A DNA stretch of 64,000 bases from Psammoneis japonica (Eukaryota), in the NCBI GenBank assembly GCA_008632985.1, contig QPGO01000024.1, positions 449,848 through 513,847 on the forward strand. The letters are read 5' to 3'. The translations under genes were made by a program, and so were the position numbers. Shown here in pieces: positions 3,601 to 49,488 of this stretch. The notes beneath the pieces are model-generated. The model made no database searches. It was not told the origin of the DNA and saw nothing but the letters and a program-made list of their open reading frames with translations. Within the stretch, counting starts at the first letter, position 1. The number at the start of each line of letters is the position of its first letter.

Positions 3601-3619
3601 CACATTTTTCTTGATGCAA

Positions 3620-15899: not shown

Positions 15900-17900
15900 T
15901 GTAAAGTTTCAAAGTGTGTTTCACACATTTGAAACACGCCAACATGAAAATTGAGACACAAATCGGTCGCGCAGGGTAATTTTGCCTCAAGAGCGCCATC
16001 AAAAGATGGCGCTCAAGCTTTTTCGTATCTTCAGAGTGAAATGTCACCCCAAAAAAAGAAAAAGGGGGGACGCAATGCGGAGACAACAAGAAAACTTGCA
16101 AGTCAACCGCTTGCCAAGCCATTTCACTCCCTGCGAGTGAAGGCTTGCCGTGTCACCGTGTCGCCGGCACGGCGAAACCCCGATTCAGCGTTCCATCAAT
16201 GGCATGATCTGCTCGGCAAGCTCTTGCTGCTTTGCAGACAAACACTTGCTGTCTCTTTCAACAGCCGTGGTCTTGACTGACCAAGTGAACGGGCAACTTC
16301 CTGCGCTCAAAGGCACGAGAGTGACATGGACTCAAGGCTGGAGAGACGCACTTGATTTGCCCGACCTCTGGACTTAACTGGCAACACCCAAGCTGCCATT
16401 TGAGACAACACTTCGTGCAAGCAAAACATGTTGTGGAACACCAAACAAGAGAAAGCCATCAGAACCAGAGGAAGGGCGAGCCATCCTTGGGTGTCGCTGC
16501 ATTCCGGCTTGGCGAACAACAAACACATCATGCCGCAAACGATGCGTTGTGATCGAAAGCGTGAGAGATTTTGTTTGTGTTGTGACCGTTGCTAAATGTC
16601 TCATTCACTGTCACTTTTGTGCACCACAGCAGAGACAATGCCATCACTTCACATGCAGAAATGTGTTTTGAACTTGGCACTGACAAAATCATTGCTGATT
16701 CCTACGCAGACCATGCGGTTGCCACACAAAGCGCCAAAAAAACTGCCGCCGATGATGTCTGCGCCGTTGTCGAGGTCCGTCTGAGCACCATCAGAATTTC
16801 AAATTACTTCTCTACTGTGGCATGTGACGATGATGGCGCCATGCGCACATGGCATGACGATGACATTGGATGTGTTGTCGCAAAGCTCTGGATTGCATCA
16901 TCACAGCAGGAGACCACGGGAAAACAGGGCATCCGCCCAGATGGTGCGCAATTTTGCCTTGTTTTCCATTGAACAGTGTGCAACATAGAAGAGAAGGATG
17001 CACACATTCAGCGGTCGGCTGTCGCAAAAATTTGCGCGCGCTTTTGCTTGGACGTCTGACGTGCCAGCAGTTCTTTTCACCGGATCGCCAAAATGCGTGC
17101 CGTTCGAGCAGTTTTTTTTTACCGGATGGTAAAAAAAATGGCACTTCTTTTTTACCGTGCGGCAACGGAGACGTCAAACTTTTGCTGTTGAGGCAAATCA
17201 AAACCCTCTCGGTTTCAGCATGAGAACCGATGGACGTTTTCCATGCTGACGTTTGTCTTTGAGCTTTCCACATCCTCCGCCAAGCATCCAATCATCGCAC
17301 GAAGCCCCAAGGGAAGAAAGAAGGACTCAGCATGGGCCATGGTGGTTTTTTATGGCATCAGAGAGCGATCGCTGATGCTGTGTGCGAACAGCATTTTTAC
17401 CGGACGACGCAAAGTTGAGCCGTTCAAGCTGTTTTTTTTTGCCGCACGACTCAACATCAAGCCGTTCTTGCCAATGTTGTTTGGCGAAATCGCCAACACA
17501 AACTTTTTTAGCAATTGTCATCATTGCCCAAATACAAATTCCACATGGGCCCTTTGAAATGCATTTGACAACTTCTTTTCACAAATGTCCGAAGAACAAC
17601 AGCCATTCAATTTTCCCGTGCTCTCTGGTCGACAGGATGCATTGGCGTGTTGTTTGCATCCATTGTCAACTGATGTTCCCCATGAGCCAGCCGGGGCAGG
17701 GCTAGTTGGTCGCGCACATTTGGGTTCGATGCAGCCGTGCAACTGGCCATGCCCTGCAGGAAGAGCTGTTGGTGGCGCGCGAGCAGAAGCAACAAAGCAA
17801 AGAACACGGCGTGGGTCAAAACGTTGTAAAATGACACAACAACAAGCAGCGAGAAGAAACCCAACTTGACCCATGAATGCTGCGCATACATGTTGTCCAA
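15900..17900. other. Partially eroded domain B (TpA low, CpG largely retained)
   Basis: Few TpA in 16100-17800 while CpG remains frequent; no recognisable intact ORF. Confidence 0.6.
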
Positions 17901-18499: not shown

Positions 18500-21400
18500 T
18501 GCTCTGGCGCATCCTTCTGATCCTGTGCTACTTTTACCTGTTTTTTAGTTGGCTTGCAATGTGGTTTGTGCTGATGTCTGGAGAAGGCAAATGCTCTAGC
18601 TTGTTGGGTCTCTGGTGCTTTGCCACTCAGTTGTTGTTGTCAGTTCGCGCCTTGTGATTCACATTGTCAACAGTGCAACACTGCATTTCACATGGATGCA
18701 ACTTACACGACCATGCTGCCGATTTGTGGAGTGTCGGGGTTCCCATCTACGACATGATTGTTGGACACACTAATTTCGTGATCGTTTGTCTGAACGCTTG
18801 TTGCTCTTGCATTCGCTGGTTCTTGTCGCTTGTCGCTGGCCCACAGTGCCGTGGTCACACATGCCGACAAATGACACTCCCAAGGCCTTCTCCTACGAAA
18901 GTCCAACTCTCTGTCAAGCACTGCGACTTTGTTGCCATTGGAGCGTTCTGAGTGCCGTGACATCAATGCCCTGGATTGTGGACTTGTGCAGACACATGAG
19001 TGGAGGAACTCTCCACGGAGGAAACATGCTTGGCCAAGGAGCCAGATGGGATTATGCTGCGTGGTGTCCTTGTCTGATGATTGCAACAAAAAAAGGCCTG
19101 CAAGCACTTGAAAACATGTGGCACTTTGACATCAAGAGGTCATGCATTCGTCCAGGTTTCAAGTGCTCCAGTTGTCATGCTGCATCGTTTCTCTTGGCGA
19201 TGTCCTCTGCGAAATTCAAAATGCCGGAGCTGACTGCTCCCGTCGCTGACATCCCATGCCTCTTTAAGCTGCAACTGGACTAGGGCCATGCCACATGTTG
19301 CTTCCGATGATGTCTGCCTCAGAATGGAGCTCCAGATTCCACTCCTGGCCAGGCAGATTCAAGCTCCTCACCCCTCACTCTACCCCGAGCCCAGCGCTTC
19401 TGCTCACAGGGTTCGGAGACCTGTGGTTGGATAGATGCCGTGTGGCTCCGCGGATGCATTGTTGTTGCTGCAGCTGGGGAACAATCTGTCCTTCTTGGAA
19501 AGAATGCATTTGAATTGAAAGGGCAAAGAAACAGGTTTTGTGCTGTGGCTGTGGTGGTGCAGGTGGAAGCAGCGGCAGGAACCAAGTGCTCTTTACCTTA
19601 GATTCGCGCAACTGTTTGCTGTTCTGACTTAATCGACAACATTTGCATGGTCATGACAGGAGTCAATTGAAGCCGTGAAGTTGGACGATGCTGAAATCCA
19701 TGTGTGCCACTGGCCCACACTCCTTCTCTGCCACCCTCCCACCCTCTGACACACCCTGCACTCTCCTCTTACAGCCCATTTGGTTTGCTGCATGTTGATG
19801 AGTCTGTGGCTCCCAGATCACACTGGAGAGGAGGCTGTGTTTGCACATTTTTGCAGATCTTTGCCAAAATCTTCAACTTCACATCACTTGCAGTGTTGTG
19901 CTTCATGCTTGGGGCATCATTGAAGATGTCATCTGGAATGGCATCTGAAACCTTTGAGAACCACTTGTCAGCATTGACAAAGATCCAGCATTGAGATGTC
20001 TCATTGCTCTCCTCAGCATGCTCCCTGATGAGATTCATCTCACGAACTGCTTTCAGTGGCTCTGATTGAAGTCTGTGCTTGGCACATTCTCTGTCAATCT
20101 CACCCTCAAATTGCTCACACTCATGTTTCTTCAGGATCTTGAGCTTGGAGATGTGCTCCAGCCCAGGTGAGACTTCATGTCATGGGTGCACAGAATTTTG
20201 CATGCAAGCTCAACAGCACCAGAGCCCAACTGGCAGATGTTTTGTCTTCAACATCAAACAAACAACAGAGTGTTTGTGGTGCATTTGTTGCACCTCTTGC
20301 AACTCAACGTTTTTGAAGATTCTCCTGCCCTGTGCCGTTTGCAAGACATGTGAGAATGGCGCCACAAAATGTCAAAAGTTGTTGGGTGGACAGCCCAACA
20401 AGTGCACTGCAAAATGACAAAATTGTGCCAAATCCATGCAGAAATGATGTGCGTGCATGACACACGATGGATGAAAAAACTTTTGTCACAGCTGTGGTGC
20501 ACCCAAAGGTGAAGCTCAACTTCTTGTTGCAGCCATGCATTTTGTGATCAAGAAGCTCTTGTTCTAGATGCGCGACACTTGCTTTGAGACCAAGAGGTTA
20601 GAAAAAGCAGTGTCCTGACAGTTGAGGTGAGATGTCTTTGCCATGCTTGAGCTTTTGTGCACAATTTGGCACCCTTTCCTTGCCCCAATGTGCTGCAACA
20701 TTGCTGGCCTTTGACTCTGCCTTTTTCCCCTGTGCTTTGAGATTTTGACCACAGGGATTTCCTGGTTTCTTGTTGGCATTTCAAAAACTTGGTTGGTCCA
20801 AGCTCAGCCACAGTGGTCAACAATTGAGTTTCCAGGTGAAGCATGGTGCACTCAAGCTAAGGCATCTTCTTGACACCACAAAAATGCCCACACTTGTGCC
20901 ACTTTGGCAAGCTCTTTTTGTTGTCCCCTTTGTCAGATCTTCTGAGCATCATTTGCTCTCTGCACTCCATTGCCTTCCTTGTTGTCATGACACTCTCTTG
21001 TGAAACCATTGCTTGCAATTGCGCATGCATGTGCTGCTGTCTTGCCTTTTCCAGTGGATGCCACAAGAGCACCCAGCTTTGCCAATCTCTCACTTGTTGT
21101 TGTGCTGTGTGGAGGAATGATTTCCTTTAGAAATCACTGCAAAACACTTGGGGGAGTTTGGATTTGTTGAGTCACAAACAATGAGGACCCTGCCAGCAAT
21201 CTTGTCAATGGCCTTGCTGTGGAACACTGCCAGCAGGCACAGCAAGACAGACCTCAAAAAGCTGTTGTGCTGTGGAGCTTCCTTCTGGAGAAAGAAATGA
21301 GCAGAACTTGGCAAGACAGCTTGGATGAAAGAGTGTGGGCAACTGGCTTTCTTGTCAAAAAGCATGCAACAACTTGGCCGGTTGGTTGCTTGGTGCAGAC

Positions 21401-23640
21401 AGCTTTTTTGATTTTCTGCTCTGTTGCGAAGCAATGTGCACTGCATTTCTTGACATGCGATGTCATTTTCTTGACAAACCAACCATTCATTCAATCTTTG
21501 CTTGAAGTGCAGTGTCTTGCATCACTGCAATGTGATCCTAAACACCTTGAACTTGGCCGCTGTTTTCCATGTTCCTGTTGTGTCTTTGAGGTCCTGGATC
21601 TTGAGAGAAATGGCACACAAGGCAATGTTGTGACATCAGATGCCCTGGCACACCAACCACAGAATCAGGTCCTTGGCACTATTTCATGTGTGGGTTGACC
21701 TGTTTTTGTGTGAGTCCTGCAAGGAAAATGTGTCAGCAACAATCCATTCTGACAAAGCAAGCAACAGAAAGTTGGAGGAAAGGGTGCTCTCTTTTGCTTT
21801 TGTCATTGTCACTTTCCTGACACCTTCTGCCACTGCTTTTAAAACTCAAAATGCTTCACAGGAAACAAGCAAGATAGCCAACTGTCCACCAGTGTGCAAT
21901 GAGCAGCTCTTGCATTGCCCCGAGCAAGTCACCCAGCATCTTGAGTTTAAACAGCAAGTTTCCTGGCATTTCAGTGGCTGCCACAGGCATCTTTGTCCAT
22001 GCTGCATCTGCTGGCTGCCTCCACTTCAACTTCAGTTCTTTGCAAAAATGTGCAGGCTGTGCGAAGGAGTTGAGCTGCACTTTAATTGTCTGAACCACTG
22101 CTGCCAATGTGGTTTGCACTGGAAGCTGAAAGGCAGACTAGATGCCATGAATGCTGAATGAATCGGATGTCACTGGCTTGCAAAACATGCCTGCTGTGGT
22201 CAAAGCTTTGCCAGTGGACACTCAGAAGCACTTTGCCCCCACAGTTGCATGTTTGTCCCTTGAACTTTTGATTTTAATTGCCAAGGCATCACAGGCTCTG
22301 CTTTGCACCAGTGGTGATGTCTTTGCTGTGCTCTTCGTTCTGTTGCAGGTGAGGTTGGCAGAAAATTGCATCAAAGAGCCATGTTGGAGTGTCACAATTT
22401 TGTCTGCTTTGCTCCAGATTCTGAGCATTCTCACTTCTTGCATGTTTTGTCCACTGTCAGACTGCACAAATGAACAACCGGTCTTTGACACTGTGTTTCC
22501 AAAGATGACAAGCTGTGTGATGGCAAGTTCCACCACCCAGTTGTCCAGCATGGAATGCCCTGGACTTGACTTTGCAACAACTGTGAAGTGCCCTGGGCTT
22601 GACTTTGCAATGAAGAGCTGGTTGAAGGAGAAGCATTTTCCACAGTCTTTTTGTCTACAATGCACTTCCAGTTCAAGCATGAAAGTGCACCTTGAAAGTC
22701 AAATCAGAATCTCTTGGTTGATTCTTGACATCCGCAGATGCACAACTCAATGTGAGTGTGGCAAAAAGCTGCTTGGTGCATGGTGTCAGCAAATTTTTCC
22801 TTGTTTGCAAAGCTTCTTCATTGTGCTCACCACTGCTCTTTCTTGTTTGCAGCACCCAAGGTCTCCTTTCTTGGTGCAGCAACAGCTGGAGCTTGTTTTT
22901 GCGAAGCACCCATTTGTTGGAGGAAGCACCTGTGGTGCAAGGATCGGTCTGTCACTCTTGCTGCTGGAAAGAATGCAACAACATCTGAAGGAAATGGAAG
23001 TGATGGGTGTGCAACCTTCCAACAGGCTGGTGACATGAAAATGCACCATTGAAGCTTGTTGGCAATTTTTCCTTGGGTTCTTTTGGGTCGGGTGTTGTTG
23101 TCCTTTGCTTCTTCTGACTAGAAAGAGCTGTTGTCCCATGCATGCAAACAAGTCAGGTGATCTGTTGGAACAGCAAAATTGTCTTGTTCTGAAACGCAGT
23201 AAAGTGGCACATTCCTTTTTTGCGTTGGACTGACAGCGATGTGCAGGCTGTTGAAACCCAACGTGAATCCAGGCACAAGAGTGGGCTTGTTGCTGCTGAA
23301 CATCAAATGCCTTGACATGCCAGAAATCACATTATTCACATTGTATTTGAAAGAAAATGCACCCAGACGAAGCGGACCCAATCTTTGTCAGGGAACCCAT
23401 CAGTTGTGTGTCTTGGTGTCGTTCGACGCATTGATGAAGGCCTCGAATGCTTCGAGACGCGCTGAGTTCATTTTGCCATCAATTCGTCAAAGCAGCCCAA
23501 TCAAAAGAATGATCAATGTGTTTTTGGTCTGTGTCTTTGTTCGATCGGGCTGCTGATGCTGTCTTGTCAAGAAATGCCCTGCAACGACAACTGTCATTGT
23601 CTGTGGCAAATCGATGCCGTGATGAAAGTGCGGCATGGTG
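18500..23640 (-). pseudogene. TpA-eroded domain C, probably a decayed long minus-strand gene or TE of unrecognised family
   Basis: TpA/CpG depletion strongest centrally. Protein-like minus-strand fragments (e.g. 19769-20038, 22222-22680, 23118-23381); no family motif recognised. Confidence 0.5.
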
Positions 23641-24678
23641 CGTTTTTTTTGGAAGGTCGACAGACCCCAAGTCGAACTACTCTCTACTCCACTAGCCAGA
23701 GTAGCTAGAGTGGTAGTAGCCCGCCTCTACCGGTGGCTAGAGAGAGAGAGCCACTCCCGGCTTGGGAGGTCAGAGAGAGCTACCGGCACTAGTGGACAGC
23801 CAAGGGGCCACAGAGTCGAGAGCGAGTTGTTCATAGCTAGAGACTACTCTAGAGTTGGTGCCGCAGGGAAAGTCTAAAAGATGTGTCAAAAGTTATCACC
23901 CTCTTTTCAGACCAGAAAGAACCCACCTTGCATCAAAACGAAAACCAGACAGTGCTGCTTAGCCCTGCATAGAAGCTCCGAAGCTCGCCACTCTCTCTCT
24001 CTCTAGAGCTACTATATTCTATATTGTACCTCTACTGAGTAGAGTACCCTACTATCGGTATCTACCAGAACATATGGGTAGCTAGGCCCACCCTTGACAA
24101 ACTTTGAAGCTGCAAAATGTGATGGGATCAAACCGCATGAAGAATCTGGCAACTTCTGAATCAAACCTGTCCTTCCCCCAAAATCTCGCCATTCACTCAA
24201 ATTTCTAGTTGACGTGCACACAAAGCATGGCTTGCTGTGTACTGTAGTGATGTAAGCCAGAGGAAAGCAGTGGCGCCAACACAGTCGGATACGTGTCATT
24301 GAAGCCCTATCTTCTTGATGTATTGGGAAGTTCCCGGCACTCTTGGATGAATGCAAGATGCAAGCCAACACTCTCAGACCGCGCGTTTGCGTGGCCAGTT
24401 TCTCGCAAGAAAGATTGTTTGCAGGAAAAAGCTAAAGGCAAGCCATTTCGGTTGTAACAAAAGTTCTTACATAGTGAGGTGTTATCAAGGACCAGGCAAA
24501 AGTACGGTGGCAGATTAGGCAATAAAAAAGTTCGATGGGTAGGTGTGTCAAAAAGTGATCCGTCGTGTGGGTTGCATTGTATGTACACGATCTTCATCAG
24601 CTGTTTGTTCTTCCAAATTGACACATGGGGTATATCATAGGTCTCTGTTGATATCTGTTTTACATCATGTCAGTCGCT

Positions 24679-25339
24679 CTAGGCTTTGTCGTCGTCGGTC
24701 AGAGCTTTCCATAAACCAACTCCGGCTTGAAAGAGACCACTGCTGACACTACTCAAACCCCAACCAACAGCACCAACTGCGGCGCGCTTCATTGCTGCAC
24801 CAGGATCGGCAATGGTAGAGTGTCGATCGTATCGTTTACGAGTGCGCATGTCGGAAAGAATTTCATATGCTAACTTTATTCGCTCCCATTCATCTCGAAC
24901 TTCATCGTGATTGTTGCTGAAGCACGGATTTACAAAAAAAAGGTTTTGAATGCATCTGCTGTGCATACTGTACAAGTAATGCCAAAAAAACCTAGAAATC
25001 ATACAGTACGTACCAGCTTCCTGGAAGAATGTCGCGGTGCCTTGCTCCATCGGGGTGGTATCGACGAGATAGCTTTTTGTATTTATCACGAATCTCTTTA
25101 CGGTCGGCATTTCTCGGAACCTTGAGGACTCGGTATGGATCGAGTATCTCACCGCTTGCTGTTTTAAATTCATCCAATAAGAACGAGGATTCGCTGTCTT
25201 CCGATGGAAGATTTCTTATCGGAGATGCTACGTTATGGGGCGCAACGCGAGCAATGCTTCGACCGACAGAAGTGGGACAGAAACCGGCCACAGTCGAGTC
25301 CGAAACAGCCAGAAGAAACAGAAGATAAGGAAGTCTCAT
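24679..25339 (-). CDS. DnaJ (J-domain) protein, probably plastid-targeted; exons 25339-25014 and 24916-24679
   Basis: DPYRVLKV...EIRDKYKKLSRRYHPD; GT-AG intron 25013-24917 joins GSC-NNHDEVRDEWERIKLAYEILSD..RKRYD; signal peptide with VAG-FCP motif. Confidence 0.9.
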
Positions 25340-25557
25340 ATTCGCGAACGACAAAAACAATCAGGAAAAGCTTAGAAGTAGTTTCAACCACAAGGCACCT
25401 CGAGCCTCAAGTAATGCAGACAAGTGGAACGGTAAGCTGTGCAAGTATGAAACGATAGGGCTAACTCTAGAGCGCTGTCTGTAGCTAATGCCCATGTCCG
25501 TCGAAGGCAGAAAGAGAAAAAGTTGAAAGTGTCACAAGAAAGCAAAATCAGCAATCG

Positions 25558-27705
25558 CTGACCAGGGATACAGCATTTTATGAGAAAAGGAAAAGAAAGC
25601 AAAAAATAAACATTTTTTAATGAAGTTTTGACACGGGGCGCTGTAGCACCGCAGTGCGCAGTGCAGACGGACGCATGCAGGTGCAGACGCGCCACGTCCC
25701 GGCGACAATTGCAAGCAAGTGGTGGAGGCAGGCCGTTGAGGAACTCGGGAGCGGCAGGCAGGGTGCGTCAGGCACGTCGAATTCGGTACGAAGTGTCATG
25801 CGTTCATGCGCGCAGAAGGATGTGGATCGCCAATGCCTGGAACACAGCACACAGCAGTCAGCACACCTCTGTCATCATGGCATCAGAATGGCAGAGGAGA
25901 ACATCGTTCCGTCTGGCAAAGCAGCTCCGGAAGTCGTGGCACAACTCACGGGCACCAAAGGCATGACTGCGGCGGCAGTTGCCACAGCTGCACTCGGTGC
26001 CGCGGGAAGTGCCGAGGGTGTGTCCGTCGAGTCTGAACACGCAAGGATGTCAGAGAAGCCGGCGCAGCCCCAAAGTGAAAATGGGGAGAAAGCCGTGCCG
26101 CCGGAGCCAACCTTTCAAATTTGCAGTTTGAAAGAAGTGGAGCAGCTGGGTTGCACCGCCGAGCAGCTCCTTTTGGCTGGTTGCAAGATTGACGTGTTGG
26201 GTGGACAGGCCACCATCCTGAAACTGAGGTCCTGGCTCTTTGCGGCGGCAAAAGCGAGGAGGCAGCCAAGCCGCAGCTGAAGTGGCCGCAAAAGCAACGG
26301 AGGAAGAGAAAGAGGAAGGAGGAAGAAAAGCAATTTCCGGACCCCAGCGAGCCGTCACTCGACTTGTGGGACTGGTTGTGGTGGCACGAAAAACCCGAAA
26401 ATTTCCAGGAGGCCATGTGGATGATGAAGGATGCGTCGAATCATCCCGGCCTCTGGTTCCCCATGCTGGGAGAACTGTGGTGCATCAGGAGTGACCCTGA
26501 AGCCGTCGCCAATGCCCACGGCGAATGCTGCAATTGCGCAAACACAAAATTGGGGTGCCCAACCACTGCACAACTGTCCAGCAAAACCAACAGTAAAAAT
26601 GCAACAATTTCGTAAAATCGAAAATTTCGATTGGACCAGCACACCACGCAGAAATCTGCACATGCGTCACACAACGTCGAATGGATTTCAACCAACAAAC
26701 CAAGAATGCGTGAACGCAAACGTCCCACAAAACAAAGCAACAGAGAAAAAAATGGATTTGCAACAACAAACAAAGAAGGCAGACAAGCCAAAGAAAACTG
26801 GAGAGGACAAGAAAAGGGTGCAGACAGATGCCGAACTGTTTCAGTCAGCAATGAGAACAAAGAAGACAGGGAGAAATTACGGCGGAAGAAGCAAGAGCGG
26901 CGTTCGAGCTTGCTTCAGGAAATTGTGATGTCTCATCTGCACTTGTGCCAGACAACACGAGAGTGGACGGTTGTCGTGTGGAAGCAACGGTCGTGCCCAG
27001 GGATGATTCAACCATGGAGGAGCCAAAGGCAGCATGGGCGGCAGCACCACCACAGACTGGTGGGAGATTTTTCACCGAGGAGGAGCTGGAAGAAGCAGGA
27101 GCAATGGAGCAGGAGAAGGAGCAAGCAAGGATCCTACAGAACAAGTGTGGACAGAAACAATGGAATGGGCGCAAGTTGCAGCCAACTGTTTGGCAAAGAC
27201 AACCGCATCAATGCGCAAATTTCACACACTCAGACTTTCACTTGAGCCACCGCGGATCGAGCATGGACAGAAATGATGGAATGGGTGCAAGTTGCAACCA
27301 ACTGTTTGGCAAAGACAACCGCATCAATGCGTAAATTTCGTGCACTTACACTTTCACTTAAGCCACCGCACCTCGAATTAGACAACATCAATTGCACTGC
27401 TCTGGCCCCAACGCATGTTAGTCAGGTCGCGTGGGTCGCGCAGAAGTGCGTATGGTACCGTAGCTAGCACCCTGTTACGAAAAGCAACCGTTGTATGTTT
27501 TAATAAATTTGGACGCCCGGCGCAAAACTCACTTAACAATGCAGCAAAATGATTGGTGCAAGCAATCGTCACGCCTCTATTTTCTGATAGTAGCGAGCGC
27601 GGCAATCCAAAATCTTTCGGTTTCAGACTTCGATGTAGAGAGTTCCACCTATGTATAAGAGAGGAGGAACCAATTTGTGTACTTTGCAATATCTATCCTG
27701 GTCAG
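25558..27705. mobile_element. Candidate 2.15-kb non-autonomous or decayed element with short imperfect terminal inverted repeats (domain D)
   Basis: ctgaccagggata (25558-25570) versus tatcctggtcag (27694-27705); interior is TpA-free but CpG-rich. No target-site duplication found. Confidence 0.4.
27148..27379 (+). repeat. 116-bp tandem duplication
   Basis: Units start tggacagaaa at 27148 and 27264. Confidence 0.95.
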
Positions 27706-28192
27706 GGGTGACACACACGCGTGTGTGGCTTTTCGGCTTTTCCAACCAAGCCCAAGGGCCTATCTCCTTTAGGCCTATCTACTCTCTACTCTAGCTAGCT
27801 AGCTCCCGCGGCCGCGCCGCCCCTGCTCTACCTACCGCCCGGCAGAGTAGAGTAGAGTAGTCTATAAATGGCCCGAGTTTAATATCGAGCGGATAAAGGT
27901 GGGATTGACTGAAACGTAACGTCACAAGGACAGGTGAATTGAATTGGGTGATGCTCTGTTATTGGAGATCCTTGTCTGTCGTGGTCTCGGGTCTCGGGAA
28001 CTAAGTGCCCTACTAGGAAACCTATGACAAGGAACTGGAGTTCAGACTCAAAGAATTCGGTGCTTTTTGCAGATTTGCGGTATTTATGATTTTGGGATAA
28101 GAGAGCGAAAGACGATTTCGGTCGCAGCTCAAGTGGCGCCATCAACCTGTCCAGTTTCGACAGACAAAATTCCTTCTTTACTGTGAACTTAT

Positions 28193-31100
28193 GGATCGGT
28201 ATGTTTTGGTTATGAGAGACTGCGTTGAACAGTTGAGCGGATACTCCAAATTCTCATCATTCAGTTCTTCTCCTCTGTACTAACAACAATCCATATCGCG
28301 CGTGCAGAAATCGGGAATCAGTTGGAGGCGGCAGAACTGGATCAGGCGGTACTTGCGCAAGCATAGCTGTCAGCTGTTCTCTGGGACGAGTTATCTCAGA
28401 GCACGACGTTTTCAAAGAGAGCTACAGGAGACATGCACCACGTTGTGAGGAGGGTTGGAGCTGCAAAGAAGGGACTTGATTGACAAGAAAGGACGAATTG
28501 AACCATCAACGAGTGCTGGTGGAACAAGAACGTCGGGAATCTGAAAAAAAACAATACCTGGCTCTATCATGAAAAGCAATAGTACTCAGGATACTTCTAT
28601 TCACACGCAACTAGGAGAACATTTTCCGTTTGCGTCTGCGGGTGAGAAGGAAGTTCGTACTAGTACCATACGCTCTAAACTCGCCGACAAGGCGGTTTTG
28701 CCAAATTGGTAGAGTTTCGAAAACGCGAAGAGAAGATTATCAAGCAGGACCCGCTACTGAAGCAATTGAGACAGCGACAACACTCATCCGAATTCACCAC
28801 CTTCCTTATTCCCATCTTCTCATCTCCACCTTCCACGGGCTGGGCCAGCTTCACCTCTAGACTACCGACAGCAGACCACTGCCACGTCGAACTTGCTTAT
28901 TCATTGCAGCCTGGCCGCACTCCAACCGAGCGAATTCCTTTTTCTGTTTCCTTTCTCATCTGCGCCGCATCTCCACGAGCTTTCGTCGCTGATCTCCGAT
29001 GAACGGCTATCAGCAGGTACTATGGGACCGACTCCAGGCGATCCTCCAACGAATATGCTGCCACCGTCGCCCTCTCCGATACCTCCCAATAGTCTTCCAC
29101 CATAGAATCTACTACAACTCCAGGTGAACCTTCACCATATTCACCCACTACTCCGCAGCCAAATAATGCTCCACGAACTGATTCAGCAGGTTCAGCATCG
29201 GCTTCTGGAGAGCACAACACAGCGCCTCCAAGAAAGTCTTCGCCCACTGCGACCCGCACCCCACCGCCAATAGCACAAGAGATGCGTCCACCGACTGCAA
29301 CTCCAATGCGAAAGCCAAGCCTGCCGCCGACTTTGCAGGCATCACAGAATGCGCCTCCTACAGTTGATCCAACTACACCGCCCCGACTCCAAACCCAACA
29401 TTTGCCTCCCACGTCATCGCCGAAACCATCTCTTCCTCCTACATTAAATCCAACAACGTCTCCCACGCAACCAGTGTCACAAAATCCTACACCGCCTTCT
29501 ACAGCTAATCCGACACCGCCGCTGTCACCGAATCCATCTTTGCCACCGACGCCATTTCCAACGTCACCACCAACACCTCGCTACCTATCATTAATCCAAC
29601 ACCGCCGCCATTTCCTAATCCATCTCTACCACCATCGCACAGTGCGATACCGCCGGCGGAAAAAACCAACCCTAACTCCGACACCTGATCCATCGCCGGT
29701 CACCTACCTGCTACAATTGCACCAGCCTCAGTGTCTCCAACGACAACTGATGGCGTGCTTTCTTCGGTTCTTTCCCGGTGTCCAAAAGGACTGATTGGAG
29801 TACCCAGCTGCAGCTACTGGAGCACTGCCCTCGGCAATCTTTTCGGGTAATGAACCGAGTGGAGCTCCAAGCGCTAACCTTCGAGTGCTTTTCTGCCTTT
29901 TCAAGTCAATCTCCTTCCAGCGAATCAAGTGTGCTCCGTCCACCGTATGTTACCGTCAACGTACTCAGTGACGTGCTGATTTCCGTGCCATCTACTGCAC
30001 CGTACGATGCTCTTTCTTCAGTACCAATTCTGACACCAACAGGAATTGTGCCTTCGTCAGCTCCCTCAACAGCTCAATCATCTATATAAGGGCAGTACAC
30101 CAAGTGAAGCTCCGAGCCTTACCCCCAGTGACGAGCATACTGGTGCCTGTCTAATGCTACATGTCAATCTCCAACAGGTGAATCTAGTGTTGAACCATCT
30201 TTGTCTCCATCCGCGGTTCCCAGTGACGTGCGGATATCGATGTCATCTACTGCGCCCTCCGACTCTCCGTCTGTTGGGCCAAGCTTATCGCATGTGGTAC
30301 AGGACTTGCACTTTTGTCAGCTCCTTTGACAGCTTCATCATCTGTTTCGGGCTGTACACCAAGTGATGCTCCGAGCGAAACGCCGAGTGACAAAATTCTT
30401 GGTACTCCGTCGGTTTTGCCAAGTCAATCTGCAATAGGCGGATCTAATGTTGCACCGTCTTTGTCGCCATTCTGGTTGGCCCATTCAATCACCTACAGGA
30501 TTTTTAGCTTCGTTAGCTCCTACGAAGGTGCCGTTGTCTGTTCCGAGGGATTCACCAGGCGAAGCTCTGACCGAAGCCCCAGTGATGTACCTGCTGATGC
30601 TCCGTCTGCTTTTCCAAGTCGATCTCCAACAGGCGCATCCAGTATTACACCGTCTTTGTCGCCATCCGCTGTTCCCATTGACGTGCAAAATCGATGTTGA
30701 TCTCTTATGCCCTCCGATTCTCCGTCTGTTGGGTGTAGACAATGGCCCATAGGACTTGTACCTTTGTTAGTTGCATCAAGTGAAGATCCGAGGGGAGCCC
30801 CCAGTGAGGCACCCTCTGGTTTTCCGTCAATGTTTTAAGTCGGATGCCGTCAGTTGCTCCCACTGCTTCGTGTTCCAGTGTGCTGTCAACTCTACCCATT
30901 GCTGTTCCGTCCGGAGAAACCTTCAACTTGGTCAGACCTTCTGATGTACCAAGTCAGATCCCTTCCGGTGCTCCGAGTAAATTCCCATCTACCGTAGTGG
31001 ACCAAGGACTGTCCTGAGTGCATTGCTTTCATCATCACCAACTACAGGCCTCAGTGATGCCTCTTCCGGATCATCGTCGACTGCGCGAAGTGGTGCCAAC

Positions 31101-31945: not shown

Positions 31946-32840
31946 AGGATTCGTTAAAGCTAGTCTCGTGTAATATTTCTATGCATACATGTATTACAAC
32001 TGATTCCAGAGATGCTAGATAGAAGTTAGTTAGACTAGAAGTAGTATCCCCTCGGAAGCGCTATGTCCGGCATCACATTGGCGGTGGGACAGCTCTCGCC
32101 TGAGCCGCTCAATCTCTGCGAATGCGTCATCGCGCTCTTGTCGTAAGCGTCGCGCTTCGGGATTGTCGGGAACCAATCTCCAGTTTGGGCAGAGTTCTTA
32201 TCAAGACAGGGAACAGCTGCACAGGAAGAACTCTGACAGGGAGTTTGCCTTGATCTTCGGACAACAATGCACCCAGGCATTGTGCAATTGCACAGAGGTG
32301 CACAAGGATTCCTTGGGTGGATGTTGATAACAGCAACAATGTCATCCAACAGCTCAAGTCAATTGGGAGCTGCACAATGCAGAGGCAAACACACCAAGGT
32401 CCCGTGCACACAGTTGTTGACTCCAAACACTTGCTGATCACATTGGAGCGCGCAATGTGGTGATCCAGACCACCTTTCTCATGGCGATTTTTTGTTAATC
32501 TATTGTGGCATGCAACTCCATTGTTTCAAACTTTGACAGTTGTGCACATGGTGATAATTTGTTAAATGTGATGAGCAAAAAAGTGCCATTGTGGGTGACC
32601 TCCATTCCCCATGAGATGCAACCTTTAACTGTAAAAATGCAACCTGTTCCCCCTTCAGAGTGCATGCCTTTCTTACCTTTTTAATGTGACATTACAAAGC
32701 CTTTTGACAAAACAAATTTGTGCTGACAAACACTTTCAACGTGGTTTACAAAATTCACATTTCCAGGCATTTGTCAATCAATGGGATGAAACATCTCTCA
32801 ATGAACACTGAATTGCTGCATTCCCAGTTTGTAATTGTTT

Positions 32841-33815
32841 TCAATGAACACTGTTGCATTGCTTTGCCACACTCCATTGTTGCATCAACACAAGGCTCCA
32901 CTCTTTCTCTGCACCGAAGTTTGCCCATTTCCTGCCTCTTCTTATCTTTGCTTCCATCCTCACTTTGTTCTTGTCCGTTGCCTCTTCCTTGTCCTTGCCA
33001 TCATTGCTGGAAAGCTCTGTCATTGCCTGTTTTCTTGCCTCCTTCTCCACCGGCATTTTCTTCCTTTTTGCTCCCTTTCCCTTTTCATCATTCTCCCTTT
33101 TCTTGCCACCACTGTGCCATGTGTTGAACTGCACACCTTCCTCACTTGTCCTGTCTTCTTTCACTTCAGCAAGCAGGGCATTGAATTGCAATGTTCCTTC
33201 ATCATTCCACAAGTCACGCTGTTGGGTTGGGTCTGGTTTTGAGTCCTCTTCCTCATCGTCCCCTGAGTCTTCCCCCCCTCCCACAGTTTTCTCATGAAGG
33301 GCCTTGTGCTCCCAAATCTTCCAGCAGTTTTCCAATGTCAACAGCCCCAGAGCCTTGTTGCTTGCTGCAGTTAGATCTGGAGCCTTGGTCTCACATGACT
33401 CCACCTTCTTTCTCCATGCCACGGTGCTTTTTGTGAATTTTAGGACATTGTCATAGAACCATGCATGTGCTTCCTTGTTCTTGTGCTTTTTGTTCACAAT
33501 TGTGTTCACTGTCTGCTCCTTCCAACTTGCCAGGAATGGTTTTTCATCCGTTGCTTGATCCTTCTTCTTCCTCTTGTGTCTGGCAGTCCACAGGACAAAG
33601 ATTTTGGACACCCAAAATGCAAGGTTTGGGGAACAAAAATTTTGTCTGACTTGCCCTTTTTCATCGATGACACAAGAAATGTGATGATTGCACTGATCTT
33701 GAGAGCTCGCGTGCAAAGAATTTGGCGTTTGACTGGACACAAGGACAAAAGCAGAATTGGCAATGTCATTGACCAGGGGAAACACACTGTGAATCCATGA
33801 TTTTGTGACTTCCAC
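32841..33815 (-). mobile_element. Decayed TE accessory ORF next to the Plavaka-like transposase
   Basis: ASNKALGLLTLENCWKIW and WNDEGTLQFNALLAEVKEDR resemble the S.EA..LL.LENY..W / W..EG..RFN.L...V..DR family seen in diatom transposon neighbourhoods. Confidence 0.55.
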
Positions 33816-34009
33816 ATCAGATCAATCTTGGTCTGAGGTGGCACACACACTTGAAGGGGGGGTCCAACAGGCAGGGCTCACCAGTGCCTGATTGCGGGTG
33901 CTCGAAATTGAACCCTCCCCCAACACAACACACACATGACAGAAAAGTTGTTGTCACTTCTGAGTCCCAGGGCAATCCATCCCCATGCATGCCAGTGAAT
34001 GATGTGAGT

Positions 34010-34270
34010 GACCAGACAAGCCAGACAACATTCCAGTTTGTTCCTGGATCGGCAGCTGGGCCAGTCCAGGCTGGCTGAGGACCAACAACAGAGACAACAA
34101 ATCTGACATTTTTAAAGTCTGACTGGACAGACTGGACAGTGTGGTTGCAGCTCATTCCTGGGTTGGCGGCCTGGCCGGTCCAGGCCGGCTGAGGGCCAAT
34201 GACAAATGATGAATCTGATGGCAAAAATCTGACTGGACAGACTGGATGGCATTCTAATTTGTTCCAGGGT
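34010..34270. repeat. About 2.4 copies of a ~110-bp unit
   Basis: Recurring gactggacag, gtccaggc.ggctgagg, aatctga blocks. Confidence 0.8.
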
Positions 34271-36210
34271 CATGGGTCTTGGGCTCTCTCATCCATTTGT
34301 GTTTCACCGCTTGACTCAATCACCACTTGCCTGCCCAGCTCTGCAGCTGATCAGCTCAACCTGTGTGGGCATGGCTTTGATGCTTTGATGATGTGGTTGT
34401 GAGTTCTCATCTGCCAAGGTGAAAAAACACTTTTGCAGCTGCGCTGTTGTTGCACTCTTGATGCATGTCATGCCAAGACAGTCCCACATCCATTTCACCA
34501 TGGACACCACCAAAACTTGTGGCAGCAGCTCACCAACAGAAGCATGAGGGGCAGGTCTCTCAACGCATGAGGAGTGTCAGTGCCAATGAGAACAGAGGTG
34601 CTTTGGATGCACTCTGTTGTTCAATCACTTGTTTGATGGTCTGCAGCTCTCACTCTGCTTTCAACTGTGTCCAGAATTGATGTTTTTAATCAGAGGGCAA
34701 TGGTTGTTTGTTGGATCCAGAACAAGTTGCAATGTGGACGATCCATTTGGCATTGCTCTTGTGCTTGCATTGGGCGGCATTTTTGCACATCATGTGGCTC
34801 ACATTTGGGCAGATTGCATTGCAGCAATTGGTGGTGTGACATGTGAGGAGGAGCACAGCAGTGCTGCTGATTTTGTCTCACCTCATAACCAACAAATTGA
34901 TGAGTGCTCTGACAACTGCACAGAGTGGACAACACGATTCAGTGTGGGCTGCTTGTGACAATTGCATGTTTTGTTTGACCCACCCATTTTGGTTCTTGTG
35001 CCATGTGCTCATGAGCATCAGTGCCAATTCACTGGTGAGGAGCTGCTTTTGTTTTCCTTGACCAAGGCGTCACTTGCAGTTGACAACACTGTGTTGGCGG
35101 ACAACTGCTTTAGAGGCAGGGATTTGACTGGGCGGTTGCATGGATGCAAGTTGTTTTTGATGTTTCTTGATGACAGATGTGCTCCTGCACTTGGGCAACA
35201 AGGTCTTGAAAGGCAGATTGATGAATTTTTCTTGTTTGCAAGAGCAGCGGAGCGCAAACTAAAGCAACAGGCTACTTGGACTGACCTGGATGCTGCTCAA
35301 GCATGCAACCTGTCCCCAGCCTTGTTTGTCCACCAGGGAATTCAACATTTTTGGTTTTTTAATTTTTCAACATTTGAAACAAATGCTCCAGGGACAGGGA
35401 CAGTTGAGGACTGGGCAGCAGATGCACTGCATTGCCCTGATGCAGATGGCATTCAGTGATTGGTGCACACAGGGTGCAAGAAGTGCACTCATGGCACAAA
35501 GACACTTGCAATGACTTTTCCAAATGGCCTGAGCATCACATGGGGTGCCACTTCAGCTCACAGGCAAGCACACAGTTGTGTGTTGCCAATGTGGTGCTTT
35601 GCATTTCCTGCAAAAACACAGCTGCTTGTCATTCTCACTGCCCTTTGCATTGTTCAAGTTCACCAGAGCTTGCACTGATTTGCAGCACTTGTCAGCCGTG
35701 AACCAACACTTGCTGGATCTTCCGCAAGGCTGCTTTCCAAATGATGGCATGGCATTGTGCTGTGCACGCACAGACCAGGGATTTGCTCAACAAGAGTGCA
35801 TCATTCACCTGTGTCACCCCAGCCACAACAGGCTGGCTCCACTCACACCCATTCAGGTGCTTGAAAATCATTGGCTCAAGGCAGTGCACATCATGGCAAA
35901 GTGGAGCTGCAGCATTGCATGCAATGTTTCTCAAATTTGCAAGGCATTGTGTCCTTTCAAGCCATGCTGTGAAACACCGCATGCTTGTGAGCAGCTTTGC
36001 GTGTCTTTCTTGCTCACAAATTGTTGCATGTGCTTCAACCACAACCAGATTGGTGTGACTGGCACATTTGGTTTTGATCCACCATCAATTCAAAACCACT
36101 TGAATTGCATCAGATCTGTGCCATTACAAACTTGGCGTAGAATGTGGCTTCTTGCATCTTTGTGTTGCATGTTGTTGCCAAACTCATGGCACTTCCATTT
36201 CCTGAAAACT
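34270..36210 (-). mobile_element. Degenerate Plavaka-like transposase
   Basis: Minus-strand fragments HCLEPMIF (cf. LEP..FTL), QCHAII (cf. YH..L) and RVHPKHLCSHWH at about 34617-34580 (cf. RAHP.Y...WYDW). Confidence 0.5.
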
Positions 36211-36214
36211 CGCT

Positions 36215-36920
36215 GGGAATTTAGTGTGCATCAACTGTGGGGTCGTTTGGACACATGGGACACAATTCTGTTCTGCTCAAGGCATGGAAACAAAAATGCT
36301 GCCATTGGAAAGTGCTTGTTCTGCAGATGACATTGATGCTGTTTGTTGTTGCAAAACTTCCATTGCTTCTGGAGCAACACCTGGCTCATGATGATGTGCT
36401 GGGAATTTGGTGCACAACTGTGGGGTTGTTTGGATGTGTGAAAGAACTCTGATCTGCTCAAGGTGTAGAAACAAAAATGCCACCATTGGAAAGCACTTGT
36501 TTGACAGATGACATTAACTCTCTGTTTGTTGTTGCAAAGCTCCCATCACTTCTGGAGCAATGCCTGGCTCATGACAATGCCCTGGGAATTTGGCATGCAA
36601 CTGCGGGGTTGTTTGGATGCACAAAAGACAGTTCTGATCTGCTCAAGGCATGGAGACAAGAACACTGCCATTGTCATTCTGCAGATGACACCAACACTGT
36701 TTGTTGTTGCAAAACTCCTGTTGCTTCTGGAGCAATGCCTGGCTCATGATGACGCACTGGGTGTGAATTTGGCATGCATCTGTGGGGTTGTTTGGACACA
36801 TTTAAGACAATTCTGATTTGCTCAAGGTGTGGAAACAAAAATGCTGCCATCAAAAAGTGCTTGTTCTGTGGATGACATTGGCACTGTTTGTTGTTGCAAA
36901 ACTCCAATTGCTTTTGGAGT
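36215..36920. repeat. About 4 tandem copies of a ~183-bp unit
   Basis: Units start (gg)gaattt near 36215, 36401, 36584, 36766 and share ctgctcaagg, gatgaca, ctgtttgttgttgcaaa, cttctggagcaa, cctggctcatga. Confidence 0.95.
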
Positions 36921-39049: not shown

Positions 39050-40200
39050 TTTGCAAACAGGCTCACGGTGGCCAGGACTGCGGCACAACCAGCAGTTGCC
39101 CCTGCAGGAAATGTGGTTGATCAAGAAGTTGTTCCTGATGGCAGACAAAATGAGATGGATGGAGGGGCTGCCAGCGGAGGTGGCCACAATGGTGAAGAAC
39201 AACCAGTGGCTGCAAGAGAGGGTGGCAGAAACAACAATGGAGTCAAGATGCATGGAGGAGCAGTTGCCGAAGGTGGACACAACGGCACTGGACAACCTGC
39301 AGTTGCAGGTGGAGATGACAACAAAGGAGGAAACGAGATGGACAGAGGGGCTGGACAACCAGCAGCTGCAGCAGGAGGTGACACAGAAAACAATGAAAGA
39401 GACAAGATGGACAAAGGGACTGCCGGTGGAGGCAATGGGAACAAGGTGAACACTTGTGCTCTGACTGCATTGACTGTGCTGAACACTTGGGGTGACACCT
39501 TCAAGGTTGACCCCATCTCTTGGTCATGCAACTCCTGCATGGTCAAAAACAAAGGGTTGGCCATTGCATGCATTGCCTGTGAAATGGCGCCGCCCACTGA
39601 AACGAGCAATGCACCAGTGGGTGCACCCGCTCAGTGCAACTTGGGTGAGGACATGCCAAATGCATCAATGGGTGCACCCGCTCAGCCCAGCTCAGATGGG
39701 GGCATGCCAATGATTTGATGGCTGCATCTGCTCAGCGCAACTCAGAAAAGGATGTGCCAAATGCAGTGATGAATGCACCCGCTCAGCACAAATTGGGCAA
39801 GGACACGCCAAATCCATCGTTGGCTGCACCACCAGCAAGTGGCCCAACTGGGGGTGTCAGTTTTGGATTCAATCCAACTGCATCCAACTCCCAGGTGAAG
39901 TCAGACAAGCCAGAATCCATGGGAGTGACACTTGCTCTTCCAGCAACTGCCTCTGGAACTGGAGGTTTTGGTTTCGGTTTCAAGCCAAATGATTTGAACT
40001 CCGATGCAAAGTCAGACAAGCCAATTAAATCCACAACAGTGCCACCCACTGGAGGTCTAAGTTTTGGATTCAATCCAAATGTGGACTCCCAGGTGAAGTC
40101 AGATGAGCCAATCAAATCCACTGGAGTGGCACTCACTCTTCCAAAGACTGGATTTGAAGGTTTTGGTTTTACGTTCAAACCCAATGCATTTAGCATCCAA
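39050..40200 (+). pseudogene. Nucleoporin-like fragment: RanBP2-type zinc finger plus FG repeats
   Basis: WGDTFK...SWSCNSCMVKNK..IACIACE (W-x-C-x2-C-x3-N-x6-C-x2-C), followed by GGVSFGFNP, GGFGFGFKP, GGLSFGFNP, GFGFTFKP; frameshifted near 39715. Confidence 0.75.

Positions 40201-49450: not shown

Positions 49451-49488
<38 letters not shown>

What the first reader, a model, noticed from the sequence alone, without database searches (positions are those of the whole stretch)
25801..26580. TpA loss without CpG loss: the two decay processes are separable
Seen: 780 nt with zero TpA (manual check) but dozens of CpG. Domain B behaves similarly, whereas domains A, E and F have lost both. Inference: TpA conversion is faster than or independent of 5mC deamination, and blocks can be ranked by age from their residual CpG.
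Basis: partly seen in the sequence, partly recalled or inferred. Interest (0 to 1): 0.8.

Follow-up and report, generated by a model that had tools for sequence, protein, structure and literature searches.

The report
TpA-erased repeat copy that keeps CpG
One copy of a repeated DNA element in an alga-like genome has had almost every TA step rewritten to TG or CA while most of its CG steps survive, so this unusual TA-erasing mutation runs ahead of the ordinary decay of CG.

Summary
25801-26580 has 0 TpA and 46 CpG. Normal DNA of this window has 30.8±5.6 TpA and 42.8±6.7 CpG per 780 nt.

Laying public contigs shows the interval lies in one copy (25612-27621) of a repeat present in tens of copies. 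It sits between two divergently transcribed genes.

The lack of TpA is derived, not native. Other copies read TA at 4 places where this copy reads TG. Four further places are TG in one copy and CA in another. A 116-nt tandem pair at the right edge has 3 TA in the outer unit against CA/TG in the inner unit.

"Without CpG loss" is too strong. At 8 places most other copies read CG and this copy reads TG or CA.

Roughly 7 of 8 TpA sites and 8 of 46 CpG sites changed since this copy split from the others, so TpA conversion looks about ten times faster. Ranking blocks by residual CpG is unsafe, because native CpG content and methylation state are both unknown.

Earlier notes of this scan already reported the TpA-erasing process elsewhere in this genome. 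One preprint reports it in Bigelowiella.

The parts
25788..26593 (.).
   Evidence: Gap of 807 nt between the TAs at 25787 and 26594, holding 47 CG. 0 TA and 46 CG in 25801-26580.
25631..27330 (.). TpA-depleted, CpG-retaining block D
   Evidence: 6 TA and 95 CG in 1700 nt. TA is at 0.09 and CG at 1.03 of normal density. TG+CA is 18.4 per 100 nt against 14.3-14.6 in normal DNA, a gain that matches the TA lost.
25612..27621 (.). One copy of a multi-copy repeat family of unknown type
   Evidence: Contigs at single-copy depth (about 63) cover 24001-25611 and 27622-29000 and end there. The stretch between is covered by short contigs of run X1, out of 459 contigs laid on 24001-29000 in all. Summed depth is about 550-4100 and most of the contigs are 85-99% alike. 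Some copies carry internal deletions or extra tandem units. No Pfam family, no protein relatives, no terminal inverted repeat.
27139..27370 (+). 116-nt tandem duplication that spans the right edge of the TpA loss
   Evidence: The outer unit has 3 TA where the inner unit has CA, CA and TG. There are also 2 TG-versus-CA double differences. 106 columns, 89.6% identity.
27331..27621 (.). Repeated part of the same stretch that keeps its TpA
   Evidence: 17 TA and 21 CG in 291 nt. Summed depth 1636-4099. One contig shows an extra 157-nt unit, 27636 back to 27480.
24452..25562 (-). Left neighbour: DnaJ-domain gene with a 97-nt intron (24917-25013)
   Evidence: DnaJ domain split over two frames. An X2 contig skips 24917-25013 with CT..AC ends and stops at 25562.
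27879..29000 (+). Right neighbour: transcribed gene of unknown family with a 109-nt GT..AG intron (28198-28306)
   Evidence: An X2 contig begins at 27879 and skips 28198-28306. No Pfam family.
15901..17900 (.). Block B: partial TpA loss with CpG kept
   Evidence: 19 TA and 108 CG in 2000 nt. TA is at 0.23 and CG at 1.00 of normal density. No Pfam family. Whether it is a repeat was not tested.
401..7100 (.). Block A: TpA and CpG both lost
   Evidence: TA at 0.09 and CG at 0.17 of normal density.
19701..23400 (.). Block C: both lost. TA-only or TA-first fringes lie at 18601-19700 and 23401-23700.
   Evidence: Core TA 0.12, CG 0.14. Left fringe TA 0.27, CG 0.67. Right fringe TA 0.25, CG 1.05.
32201..47700 (.). 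Block E: both lost
   Evidence: TA 0.10, CG 0.15. Both edges agree for the two dinucleotides within about 100-200 nt.
59501..64000 (.). Block F: both lost, with a weak reverse-transcriptase relic. A TA-only fringe lies at 59201-59500.
   Evidence: TA 0.05, CG 0.28. Fringe TA 0.08, CG 0.86. RVT_1 at E 0.0013, below Pfam's cut-off, at 61951-62808.

Best explanation
The interval is the core of one copy (25612-27621) of a dispersed repeat family. The copy lies between the 5' ends of two divergently transcribed genes. A mutational process that turns TpA into TpG or CpA has converted about 90% of the TpAs in 25631-27330. This is an A:T-to-G:C transition restricted to TpA. It most likely acts on the DNA of repeats and may be an adenine deaminase. 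A second, slower process turns CpG into TpG or CpA. It is most likely deamination of 5-methylcytosine, and it has only begun in this copy. The neighbouring blocks A, C, E and F show the end state of both processes. Shown here: the dinucleotide counts, the repeat status of the block, the TA, CG and TG/CA differences between copies, and the sequence-context bias of surviving TpAs. Inferred: that the TpA process acts on DNA rather than RNA, the enzyme, and that CpG loss is driven by methylation.
For: (1) Composition balance. D has lost 3.7 TA per 100 nt and gained 3.9 TG+CA, with CG unchanged. A, C and E have lost about 3.6 TA plus 4.6 CG and gained about 8-9 TG+CA. GC content rises in D (0.54) and is unchanged in the double-loss blocks (0.47-0.48). 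This is what two opposite transitions predict.
(2) The block is a repeat present in tens of copies. The left edge of the TpA loss (about 25630) coincides with the left end of the repeat at 25612.
(3) The TpA loss is derived. Other copies read TA where this copy reads TG at 25711, 26083, 26153 and 26183. At 26082-83 this copy reads TG, 5 X1 contigs (58% of depth) read TA, and the X2 copy reads CA. Three more places are CA in this copy and TG in the others, or the reverse: 25985-86, 26124-25 and 26138-39.
(4) Tandem pairs. In the pair at the right edge, 5 of 9 difference events are TA-versus-TG/CA or TG-versus-CA. TG-versus-CA events are 3 of 211 in four tandem pairs of normal DNA, and 18 of 50 in two pairs inside block E.
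(5) CpG decay has started. At 8 places this copy reads TG or CA where up to 13 contigs of other copies read CG.
(6) Nesting. 0 of 128 bins show CpG loss without TpA loss.
(7) Surviving TpAs are strongly biased by context (chi-square 142.6, 9 df, p 3e-26). Survival relative to normal density is TTAA 0.52 against ATAT 0 and GTAC 0.009. That points to a sequence-specific agent and not to drift.
(8) A preprint reports de novo TpA-only A:T-to-G:C hypermutation of integrated viral DNA in Bigelowiella natans, with u(AT>GC) 6.85e-7 against u(GC>AT) 3.9e-9 in one region (10.64898/2026.01.13.699255; abstract, section 9 and passages).
Against: Most visible copies share the TpA-poor state. With majority letters applied, 551 nt hold 3 TA where normal density predicts about 22. 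Much of the loss therefore predates this copy and need not have happened at this locus.
The TpA loss stops at 27330, but the repeated stretch runs on to 27621 with normal TpA content. Being repeated does not by itself set the limits.
Only 40 of 130 difference rows were shown, and they cover 25711-26242 and 27459-27484. The site counts rest on about 550 nt.
The TG-versus-CA places could descend from CG rather than TA.
No methylation data exist for any block.
Block B was not shown to be a repeat.
No evidence here separates DNA-level from RNA-level editing for this family.
Confidence: 0.62

Rival explanations
1. CpG is kept because this copy, and block B, are little or not methylated, not because they are young. 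On this reading the TpA mutator and CpG methylation are aimed independently, and residual CpG reports chromatin state rather than age.
For: The copy fills the space between two transcribed genes. Their transcript ends lie at 25562 and 27879, 50 and 258 nt from the repeat's ends. CpG remainders fall into two groups, 0.14-0.28 and 0.67-1.05, with little between. B and the left flank of C have equal TpA remainders but different CpG remainders. In Phaeodactylum, methylation marks transposable elements and depends on DNMT5a (PMC9998398, abstract only), so it depends on state.
Against: This copy differs from the family majority at 8 CpG places. The other transitions among the 33 rows listed within D are 5, apart from the TA-type ones. 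CpG is therefore hypermutable in this lineage, which is the usual mark of methylation.
Confidence: 0.25
2. The element is natively almost TpA-free through its own composition or through selection against TA. Nothing was erased.
For: All copies that could be seen are TpA-poor: 3 TA in 551 nt with majority letters applied. No TA-normal copy or relative was found.
Against: Other copies hold TA at 4 places where this one has TG. One place shows three states, TG, TA and CA. There are TG-versus-CA double differences. In the tandem pair, 3 of 3 TAs in the outer unit are CA or TG in the inner unit. The TG+CA excess equals the TA deficit. The same deficit is seen in unrelated DNA covering about half of the window.
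Confidence: 0.05
3. The edits were made on RNA, by ADAR-like A-to-I editing at UpA, before reverse transcription. Copies then inherit the edits rather than being mutated as DNA.
For: Most copies share the same converted states. On the + strand the excess is more CA (+3.0 per 100 nt) than TG (+1.0). A different copy appears in the RNA-like run X2.
Against: No reverse transcriptase or other retroelement feature is found in the element. Both TG and CA products occur in the one copy. In blocks A and E the TG and CA counts are equal (792:790 and 1822:1738). The loss ends inside the repeated stretch and inside a tandem unit. TpA-only fringes of 300-1100 nt lie beside blocks A, C and F.
Confidence: 0.08

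Closest known systems
TpA-restricted hypermutation of integrated giant-virus and virophage DNA in Bigelowiella natans (Mettrop et al., bioRxiv 10.64898/2026.01.13.699255)
   Same: Both show TpA depletion with a matching CpA+TpG gain, A:T-to-G:C direction, and clustering in sharply limited blocks of non-genic or foreign DNA.
   Different: The host here is different: eukaryotic, and called a diatom in earlier scan notes, which I did not test. The target is a cellular repeat family with no viral mark. No de novo events were observed. The passages I read do not mention CpG or trinucleotide context (0 occurrences of 'CpG', 'trinucleotide' or 'context'). This locus adds the relation to CpG decay and a context order for survival: TAA 25%, TAG 11%, TAC 7%, TAT 3%.
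Repeat-induced point mutation (RIP) of Neurospora and other Pezizomycotina
   Same: Both are dinucleotide-specific transition hypermutation found in repeated DNA, with sharp limits, and both ruin coding capacity.
   Different: The direction is opposite. RIP turns CpA into TpA and enriches TpA (abstracts seen in the listing, for example PMC2621366). Here TpA is erased and GC rises. The machinery was not examined.
CpG decay of methylated transposable elements by 5-methylcytosine deamination
   Same: CpG goes to TpG/CpA in silent repeat blocks. This accounts for the CpG deficit of A, C, E and F and for the 8 CpG differences of this copy.
   Different: It cannot remove TpA. Here it lags behind the TpA loss and is absent from B. 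The link to methylation rests on general knowledge and on the Phaeodactylum abstract (PMC9998398). It was not measured here.
Adenosine deaminases acting on polynucleotides (ADAR, ADAT2/3, TadA)
   Same: A-to-I chemistry would give A-to-G next to a 5' T or U. The preprint proposes an ADAT2-like candidate. From memory, the natural ADAT/TadA target A34 always follows U33.
   Different: No enzyme was looked for here, because no genome is held. Action on DNA is assumed. The 3'-neighbour order seen here (T, C > G > A) was not compared with any enzyme's measured preference.

Membership tests
TpA-restricted hypermutation (as in Bigelowiella natans) | TpA depleted with a matching CpA+TpG gain in a bounded block | tested here: met
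   D has TA at 0.09 of normal density, and TG+CA up by 3.9 per 100 nt against 3.7 TA lost.
TpA-restricted hypermutation (as in Bigelowiella natans) | Differences between related copies fall on TpA as A:T-to-G:C changes | tested here: met
   4 TA-versus-TG places and 4 TG-versus-CA places among the 33 rows listed within D. In the tandem pair, 5 of 9 events are of this kind. Only 40 of 130 rows were visible.
TpA-restricted hypermutation (as in Bigelowiella natans) | Aimed at foreign or repeated DNA and sparing neighbouring genes | tested here: met
   The block is a multi-copy repeat. The flanking genes have normal TpA. However, 27331-27621 is repeated and was not hit.
TpA-restricted hypermutation (as in Bigelowiella natans) | De novo events at a high rate in cultured lines | not testable with these tools
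   Only contigs from one sample were available.
RIP (fungal) | C-to-T at CpA, giving a TpA excess and loss of GC | tested here: not met
   TA o/e is 0.06 and GC is 0.54 in D, against TA o/e 0.55-0.74 and GC about 0.47-0.51 in normal DNA.
RIP (fungal) | The target is duplicated DNA | tested here: met
   Summed contig depth is 9-65 times the single-copy depth over 25612-27621.
Methylation-driven CpG decay | CpG lost to TpG/CpA | tested here: met
   A, C and E have CG at 0.14-0.17 of normal density, with TG+CA up by about 8-9 per 100 nt. In D, 8 places read TG or CA against CG in the other copies.
Methylation-driven CpG decay | The DNA is 5mC-methylated | not testable with these tools
   No methylation calls were available.
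RNA hyper-editing inherited through retro-copying | The element has retroelement features and its edits lie on one strand only | tested here: not met
   No RT or other Pfam family in D. Both TG and CA products are present.

The most novel reading that the evidence does not exclude
The TpA mutator is the first and autonomous step of repeat defence in this lineage. It recognises repeated DNA even between two active genes. It works about ten times faster per site than CpG decay and does not need CpG methylation. It has a trinucleotide preference: T-A-pyrimidine is hit most, and the TTA/TAA duplex least. That preference would fit an ADAT/TadA-derived adenine deaminase working on DNA. Loci such as this one, with TpA gone and CpG mostly kept, would then be the natural material to time the two steps.
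Probability: 0.25. Interest if true: 0.85.

Novelty: new variant of a known kind. Interest (0 to 1): 0.6.

Why it matters
Targeted A:T-to-G:C hypermutation of TpA is known from a single 2026 preprint on a chlorarachniophyte. I found no paper describing it in diatoms or relating it to CpG decay.

This locus gives three usable constraints on the mechanism:
- It acts on an ordinary cellular repeat, not only on viral DNA.
- It reaches near saturation while CpG decay is still at roughly 17-30%, so it does not depend on prior CpG erosion, and the two can be timed against each other.
- Surviving TpAs show a strong context bias, which can be compared with candidate deaminases.

There is also a practical warning. 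Observed/expected CpG is not a safe age measure here, because TpA conversion raises GC and element families differ in native CpG content.

Tried and rejected
- Identity of the block. There is no Pfam family in any ORF of D, B or their surroundings apart from the neighbouring DnaJ gene. There were no protein relatives for the ORFs 25624-26280 (near and shorter lengths) and 26193-26615.
- The one hit of the exhaustive search with ORF 26855-27334 (P0001, E 3e-18) is spurious. It is a 25-bit match counted 14 times in a perfect tandem-repeat protein.
- The protein atlas gave no usable hit for two ORFs. The viral contig scan gave 12 pattern matches, none confirmed.
- Rfam gave 0 matches in the window.
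- A codon-usage score gave only weak + strand signals, no better than for the DnaJ gene, and I did not use it.
- Other copies inside the window: none by blastn, tblastx or a purine/pyrimidine-alphabet search. The best score was 60 against a shuffle maximum of 59.
- No terminal inverted repeat at the repeat's ends.
- Strand-tract test: TG and CA labels are not clustered in any block (runs-test z between -1.25 and 0.84 in the depleted blocks). This says nothing either way once conversion is saturated.
- 94 ORFs of the double-loss blocks gave only sub-threshold Pfam hits, including RVT_1 at E 0.0013. 'TE copy' is therefore not shown for A, C or E.
- No whole genome is held.
- No RNA holder was listed by the run search. 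I treat X2 as RNA-like only because its contigs skip two GT..AG introns that X1 contains.
A Poisson and empirical calculation replaced it.
- Earlier-notes look-ups by place (near) and by sequence found nothing for this block.
- An apparent patch with CpG lost but TpA kept (32501-32700) turned out to hold TpAs mostly in the resistant TTAA and TTAC contexts.
Full report
**Observation.** Window 25801-26580 has no TA at all, where base composition predicts 33.7. It has 46 CG (o/e 0.72), with TG at o/e 1.67 and CA at 1.36. The TA-free run is 807 nt, between the TAs at 25787 and 26594. The TA-poor block, here called D, runs about 25631-27330 with 6 TA and 95 CG. In the TA-normal parts of the window, 236 overlapping 780-nt windows have 30.8±5.6 TA (minimum 18) and 42.8±6.7 CG. 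The Poisson chance of an empty 780-nt window is 1.7e-14. The longest TA-free run in normal DNA is 320 nt.

**The window as a whole.** The window is eukaryotic. It holds PPR, Maf, TsaD, UPF0047, D-glutamate-cyclase-like and DnaJ genes, and it has GT..AG introns. Earlier notes of this scan call the genome a diatom. I did not test that.

About half of the window lies in four blocks that have lost both dinucleotides: A 401-7100, C 19701-23400, E 32201-47700 and F 59501-64000. Their TA is at 0.05-0.12 of normal density and their CG at 0.14-0.28.

TpA-only DNA is found in several places:
- D
- B (15901-17900; TA 0.23, CG 1.00)
- the first 400 nt of the window
- fringes beside C (18601-19700, TA 0.27, CG 0.67; and 23401-23700)
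- a fringe beside F (59201-59500)

Of 128 bins of 500 nt, 51 have TA o/e <0.15 together with CG o/e <0.35. Ten have TA o/e <0.15 with CG o/e >=0.35. None has CG o/e <0.35 with TA o/e >=0.35. CpG loss is therefore nested inside TpA loss.

The composition balances. D lost 3.7 TA and gained 3.9 TG+CA per 100 nt, with CG unchanged at 5.59 against 5.4-5.6 in normal DNA. A, C and E lost TA and CG and gained their sum as TG+CA. GC rises to 0.54 in D and stays at 0.47-0.48 in the double-loss blocks.

**What the block is.** Laying the contigs of three coded public runs from one sample on 24001-29000 was the most informative step. Contigs at single-copy depth (about 63) cover 24001-25611 and 27622-29000 and end exactly there. 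The stretch between is covered by short contigs of run X1; 459 X1 contigs were laid on 24001-29000 in all, 114 of them >=99% alike and the other 345 less alike. Summed depth between the flanks is about 550-4100. Some contigs skip 318-923 nt or carry an extra tandem unit. Their differences from the window are 95 transitions to 21 transversions.

D is therefore part of one copy of a repeat present in tens of copies. Its type is unknown: no Pfam family, no protein relative, no terminal inverted repeat and no second copy in this window.

Run X2 behaves like RNA. Its contigs skip a 97-nt intron in the DnaJ gene and a 109-nt GT..AG intron to the right of D, and X1 contains both introns. X2 also leaves most of the intergenic DNA uncovered. 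On that inference the repeat copy fills the space between two divergent transcripts that end at 25562 and 27879. One X2 contig (360 nt, 31 differences) lies on 25972-26272, so a different copy of the family is represented in X2.

**The TpA loss is derived.**
- Other copies read TA where this copy reads TG at 25711, 26083, 26153 and 26183.
- At 26082-83 three states coexist: TG here, TA in 5 X1 contigs (58% of depth), and CA in the X2 copy. A TA ancestor needs two changes to explain this and any other ancestor needs more.
- At 25985-86, 26124-25 and 26138-39 this copy and all laid contigs differ at both letters (CA against TG). That is the footprint of one self-complementary dinucleotide converted on different strands.
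- Inside the window, the 116-nt tandem pair at the right edge shows 3 TA in the outer unit against CA, CA and TG in the inner unit, none the other way, plus 2 TG-versus-CA events, out of 9 events.
- As a control, four tandem pairs in normal DNA show TG-versus-CA in 3 of 211 events and symmetric TA changes. Two pairs in block E show it in 18 of 50 events.

However, no uneroded copy was seen. With the majority letters of the other copies applied, 25700-26250 still has only 3 TA, where normal density predicts about 22. Most of the erosion is shared by the family and predates this copy's separation.

**CpG is not untouched.** At 25937, 25954, 25998, 26034, 26039, 26052, 26190 and 26215 this copy reads TG or CA, four of each. 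Most other copies read CG there, up to 13 contigs and 98% of depth at 26052. The reverse is seen at 26099 and 26158, in one X1 contig each plus the X2 contig.

Over 25700-26250 the window has 38 CG against 45 with majority letters applied. Over 25972-26272 it has 19 against 23 in the X2 copy, which also keeps 2 TA against 0 here. The family is natively CpG-richer than the genome, so background-level CpG density in D hides a loss of roughly 17% (8 of 46). In the best-covered 290 nt the loss is 30% (8 of 27).

Apart from TA-type changes, the rows listed within D hold 10 CpG transitions, 5 other transitions and 7 transversions. This suggests CpG hypermutability, which is the usual mark of methylation.

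**Relative speed and the proposed age ranking.**
- In 25700-26250, 8 TpA sites can be shown to have existed when this copy split from the others, and 7 are now converted. For CpG the figure is 8 of 46. As log ratios, TpA is about 11 times faster.
- If the three double differences came from CG instead, the ratio is about 6 (my arithmetic).
- The Bigelowiella preprint gives u(AT>GC) 6.85e-7 against u(GC>AT) 3.9e-9 in a hypermutable region, which is the same direction.
- Across blocks no single ratio fits. B and the left flank of C have equal TpA remainders (0.23, 0.27) but CpG remainders of 1.00 and 0.67. TpA levels off near 0.1 in all old blocks.

Together with unknown native CpG content and unknown methylation, this makes residual CpG an unsafe clock. 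Since D lies between two active genes, low methylation is a live alternative reason for its CpG retention.

**Context preference.** The 152 TpAs that survive in the depleted blocks are not a random sample of contexts (chi-square 142.6, 9 df, p 3e-26). Survival relative to normal density is:

| Context | Survival |
|---|---|
| TTAA | 0.52 |
| CTAA/TTAG | 0.30 |
| GTAA/TTAC | 0.21 |
| CTAG | 0.115 |
| CTAC/GTAG | 0.066 |
| ATAA/TTAT | 0.062 |
| ATAG/CTAT | 0.047 |
| ATAC/GTAT | 0.024 |
| GTAC | 0.009 |
| ATAT | 0 |

As trinucleotides on either strand, survival is TAA 25%, TAG 11%, TAC 7% and TAT 3%. Because TA is self-complementary, this can be read in two ways: a 3' pyrimidine favours change of the A, or a 5' purine favours change of the T. 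The two readings cannot be told apart here. An apparent patch with CpG lost and TA kept at 32501-32700 consists mostly of the resistant contexts.

Surviving CpGs in the double-loss blocks favour GCGC, CCGC and CCGG (0.31-0.36) over TCGA (0.06).

**Comparison with what is known.** The signature matches the TpA-restricted hypermutation reported for integrated viral DNA in Bigelowiella natans. I read the abstract, section 9 and passages of that preprint. It does not mention CpG, trinucleotide context or diatoms. It runs opposite to fungal RIP (abstracts seen in the listing). Searches for diatom papers with these terms found nothing relevant. Methylation of transposable elements by DNMT5a in Phaeodactylum (PMC9998398, abstract) makes methylation-driven CpG decay plausible for the second process.

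The scan has already reported the TpA-erasing process on other pieces of this genome. One note (e1-7549424) already states that CG is kept in some TpA-depleted stretches. What this locus adds:
- proof that such a stretch is a multi-copy repeat
- copy-to-copy evidence that both processes act on it at different speeds
- the context bias of surviving TpAs
- the caution about CpG-based dating

**Limits.**
- Only 40 of 130 difference rows were visible, nearly all within 25711-26242.
- All runs come from one sample and may be the source of the assembly.
- B was not tested for repetition.
- No methylation data and no whole genome were available.
- I did not consult the preprint's supplementary tables. 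They may hold context or CpG data.

Noticed in passing
window 27331-27621: This stretch is repeated at the highest summed depth (1636-4099) and shows a 157-nt extra unit in another copy. Yet it has normal TpA content (17 TA in 291 nt), right beside the TpA-erased part.
   Followed up: partly
all depleted blocks (401-7100, 15901-23400, 25631-27330, 32201-47700, 59501-64000): Surviving TpAs are strongly context-biased. TTAA survives at 0.52 of normal density, while ATAT survives at 0 and GTAC at 0.009. This is a possible trinucleotide preference of the mutator.
   Followed up: partly
double-loss blocks A, C, E, F: Surviving CpGs favour GCGC, CCGC and CCGG (0.31-0.36 of normal density) over TCGA (0.06) (chi-square 62.3, p 5e-10).
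   Followed up: no
window 49409-49729: This is the longest TA-free run in otherwise normal DNA (320 nt, 16 CG). It lies inside the D-glutamate-cyclase-like gene and next to a CAG microsatellite. It could be chance, codon usage or a small hit of the same process.
   Followed up: no
window 36232-36919: A 183-nt tandem array (3.8 units, 75% matches) lies inside block E. Neighbouring units differ by 7 and 11 TG-versus-CA double changes, so the units were converted independently after the array formed.
   Followed up: partly
window 12854-13972: A tandem duplication of about 550 nt lies in TA-normal DNA (87.5% identity). Its spectrum is ordinary and symmetric: 33 transversions among 67 events and no TG-versus-CA events. 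I used it as a control.
   Followed up: yes
window 7351-10680 (+): An open frame of 1109 aa in TA-normal DNA has no Pfam family.
   Followed up: no
window 61951-62808 (+): A weak reverse-transcriptase relic (RVT_1, E 0.0013, below the Pfam cut-off) is the only transposon-like domain found in the double-loss blocks.
   Followed up: no
window 24001-24100: There are 17 TpA in 100 nt, followed by 100 nt with none, in the normal DNA left of the DnaJ gene.
   Followed up: no
window 45694-45796: A perfect 53-nt tandem duplication (1.9 copies, 100% matches) lies inside the old block E, so it is recent relative to the erosion.
   Followed up: no
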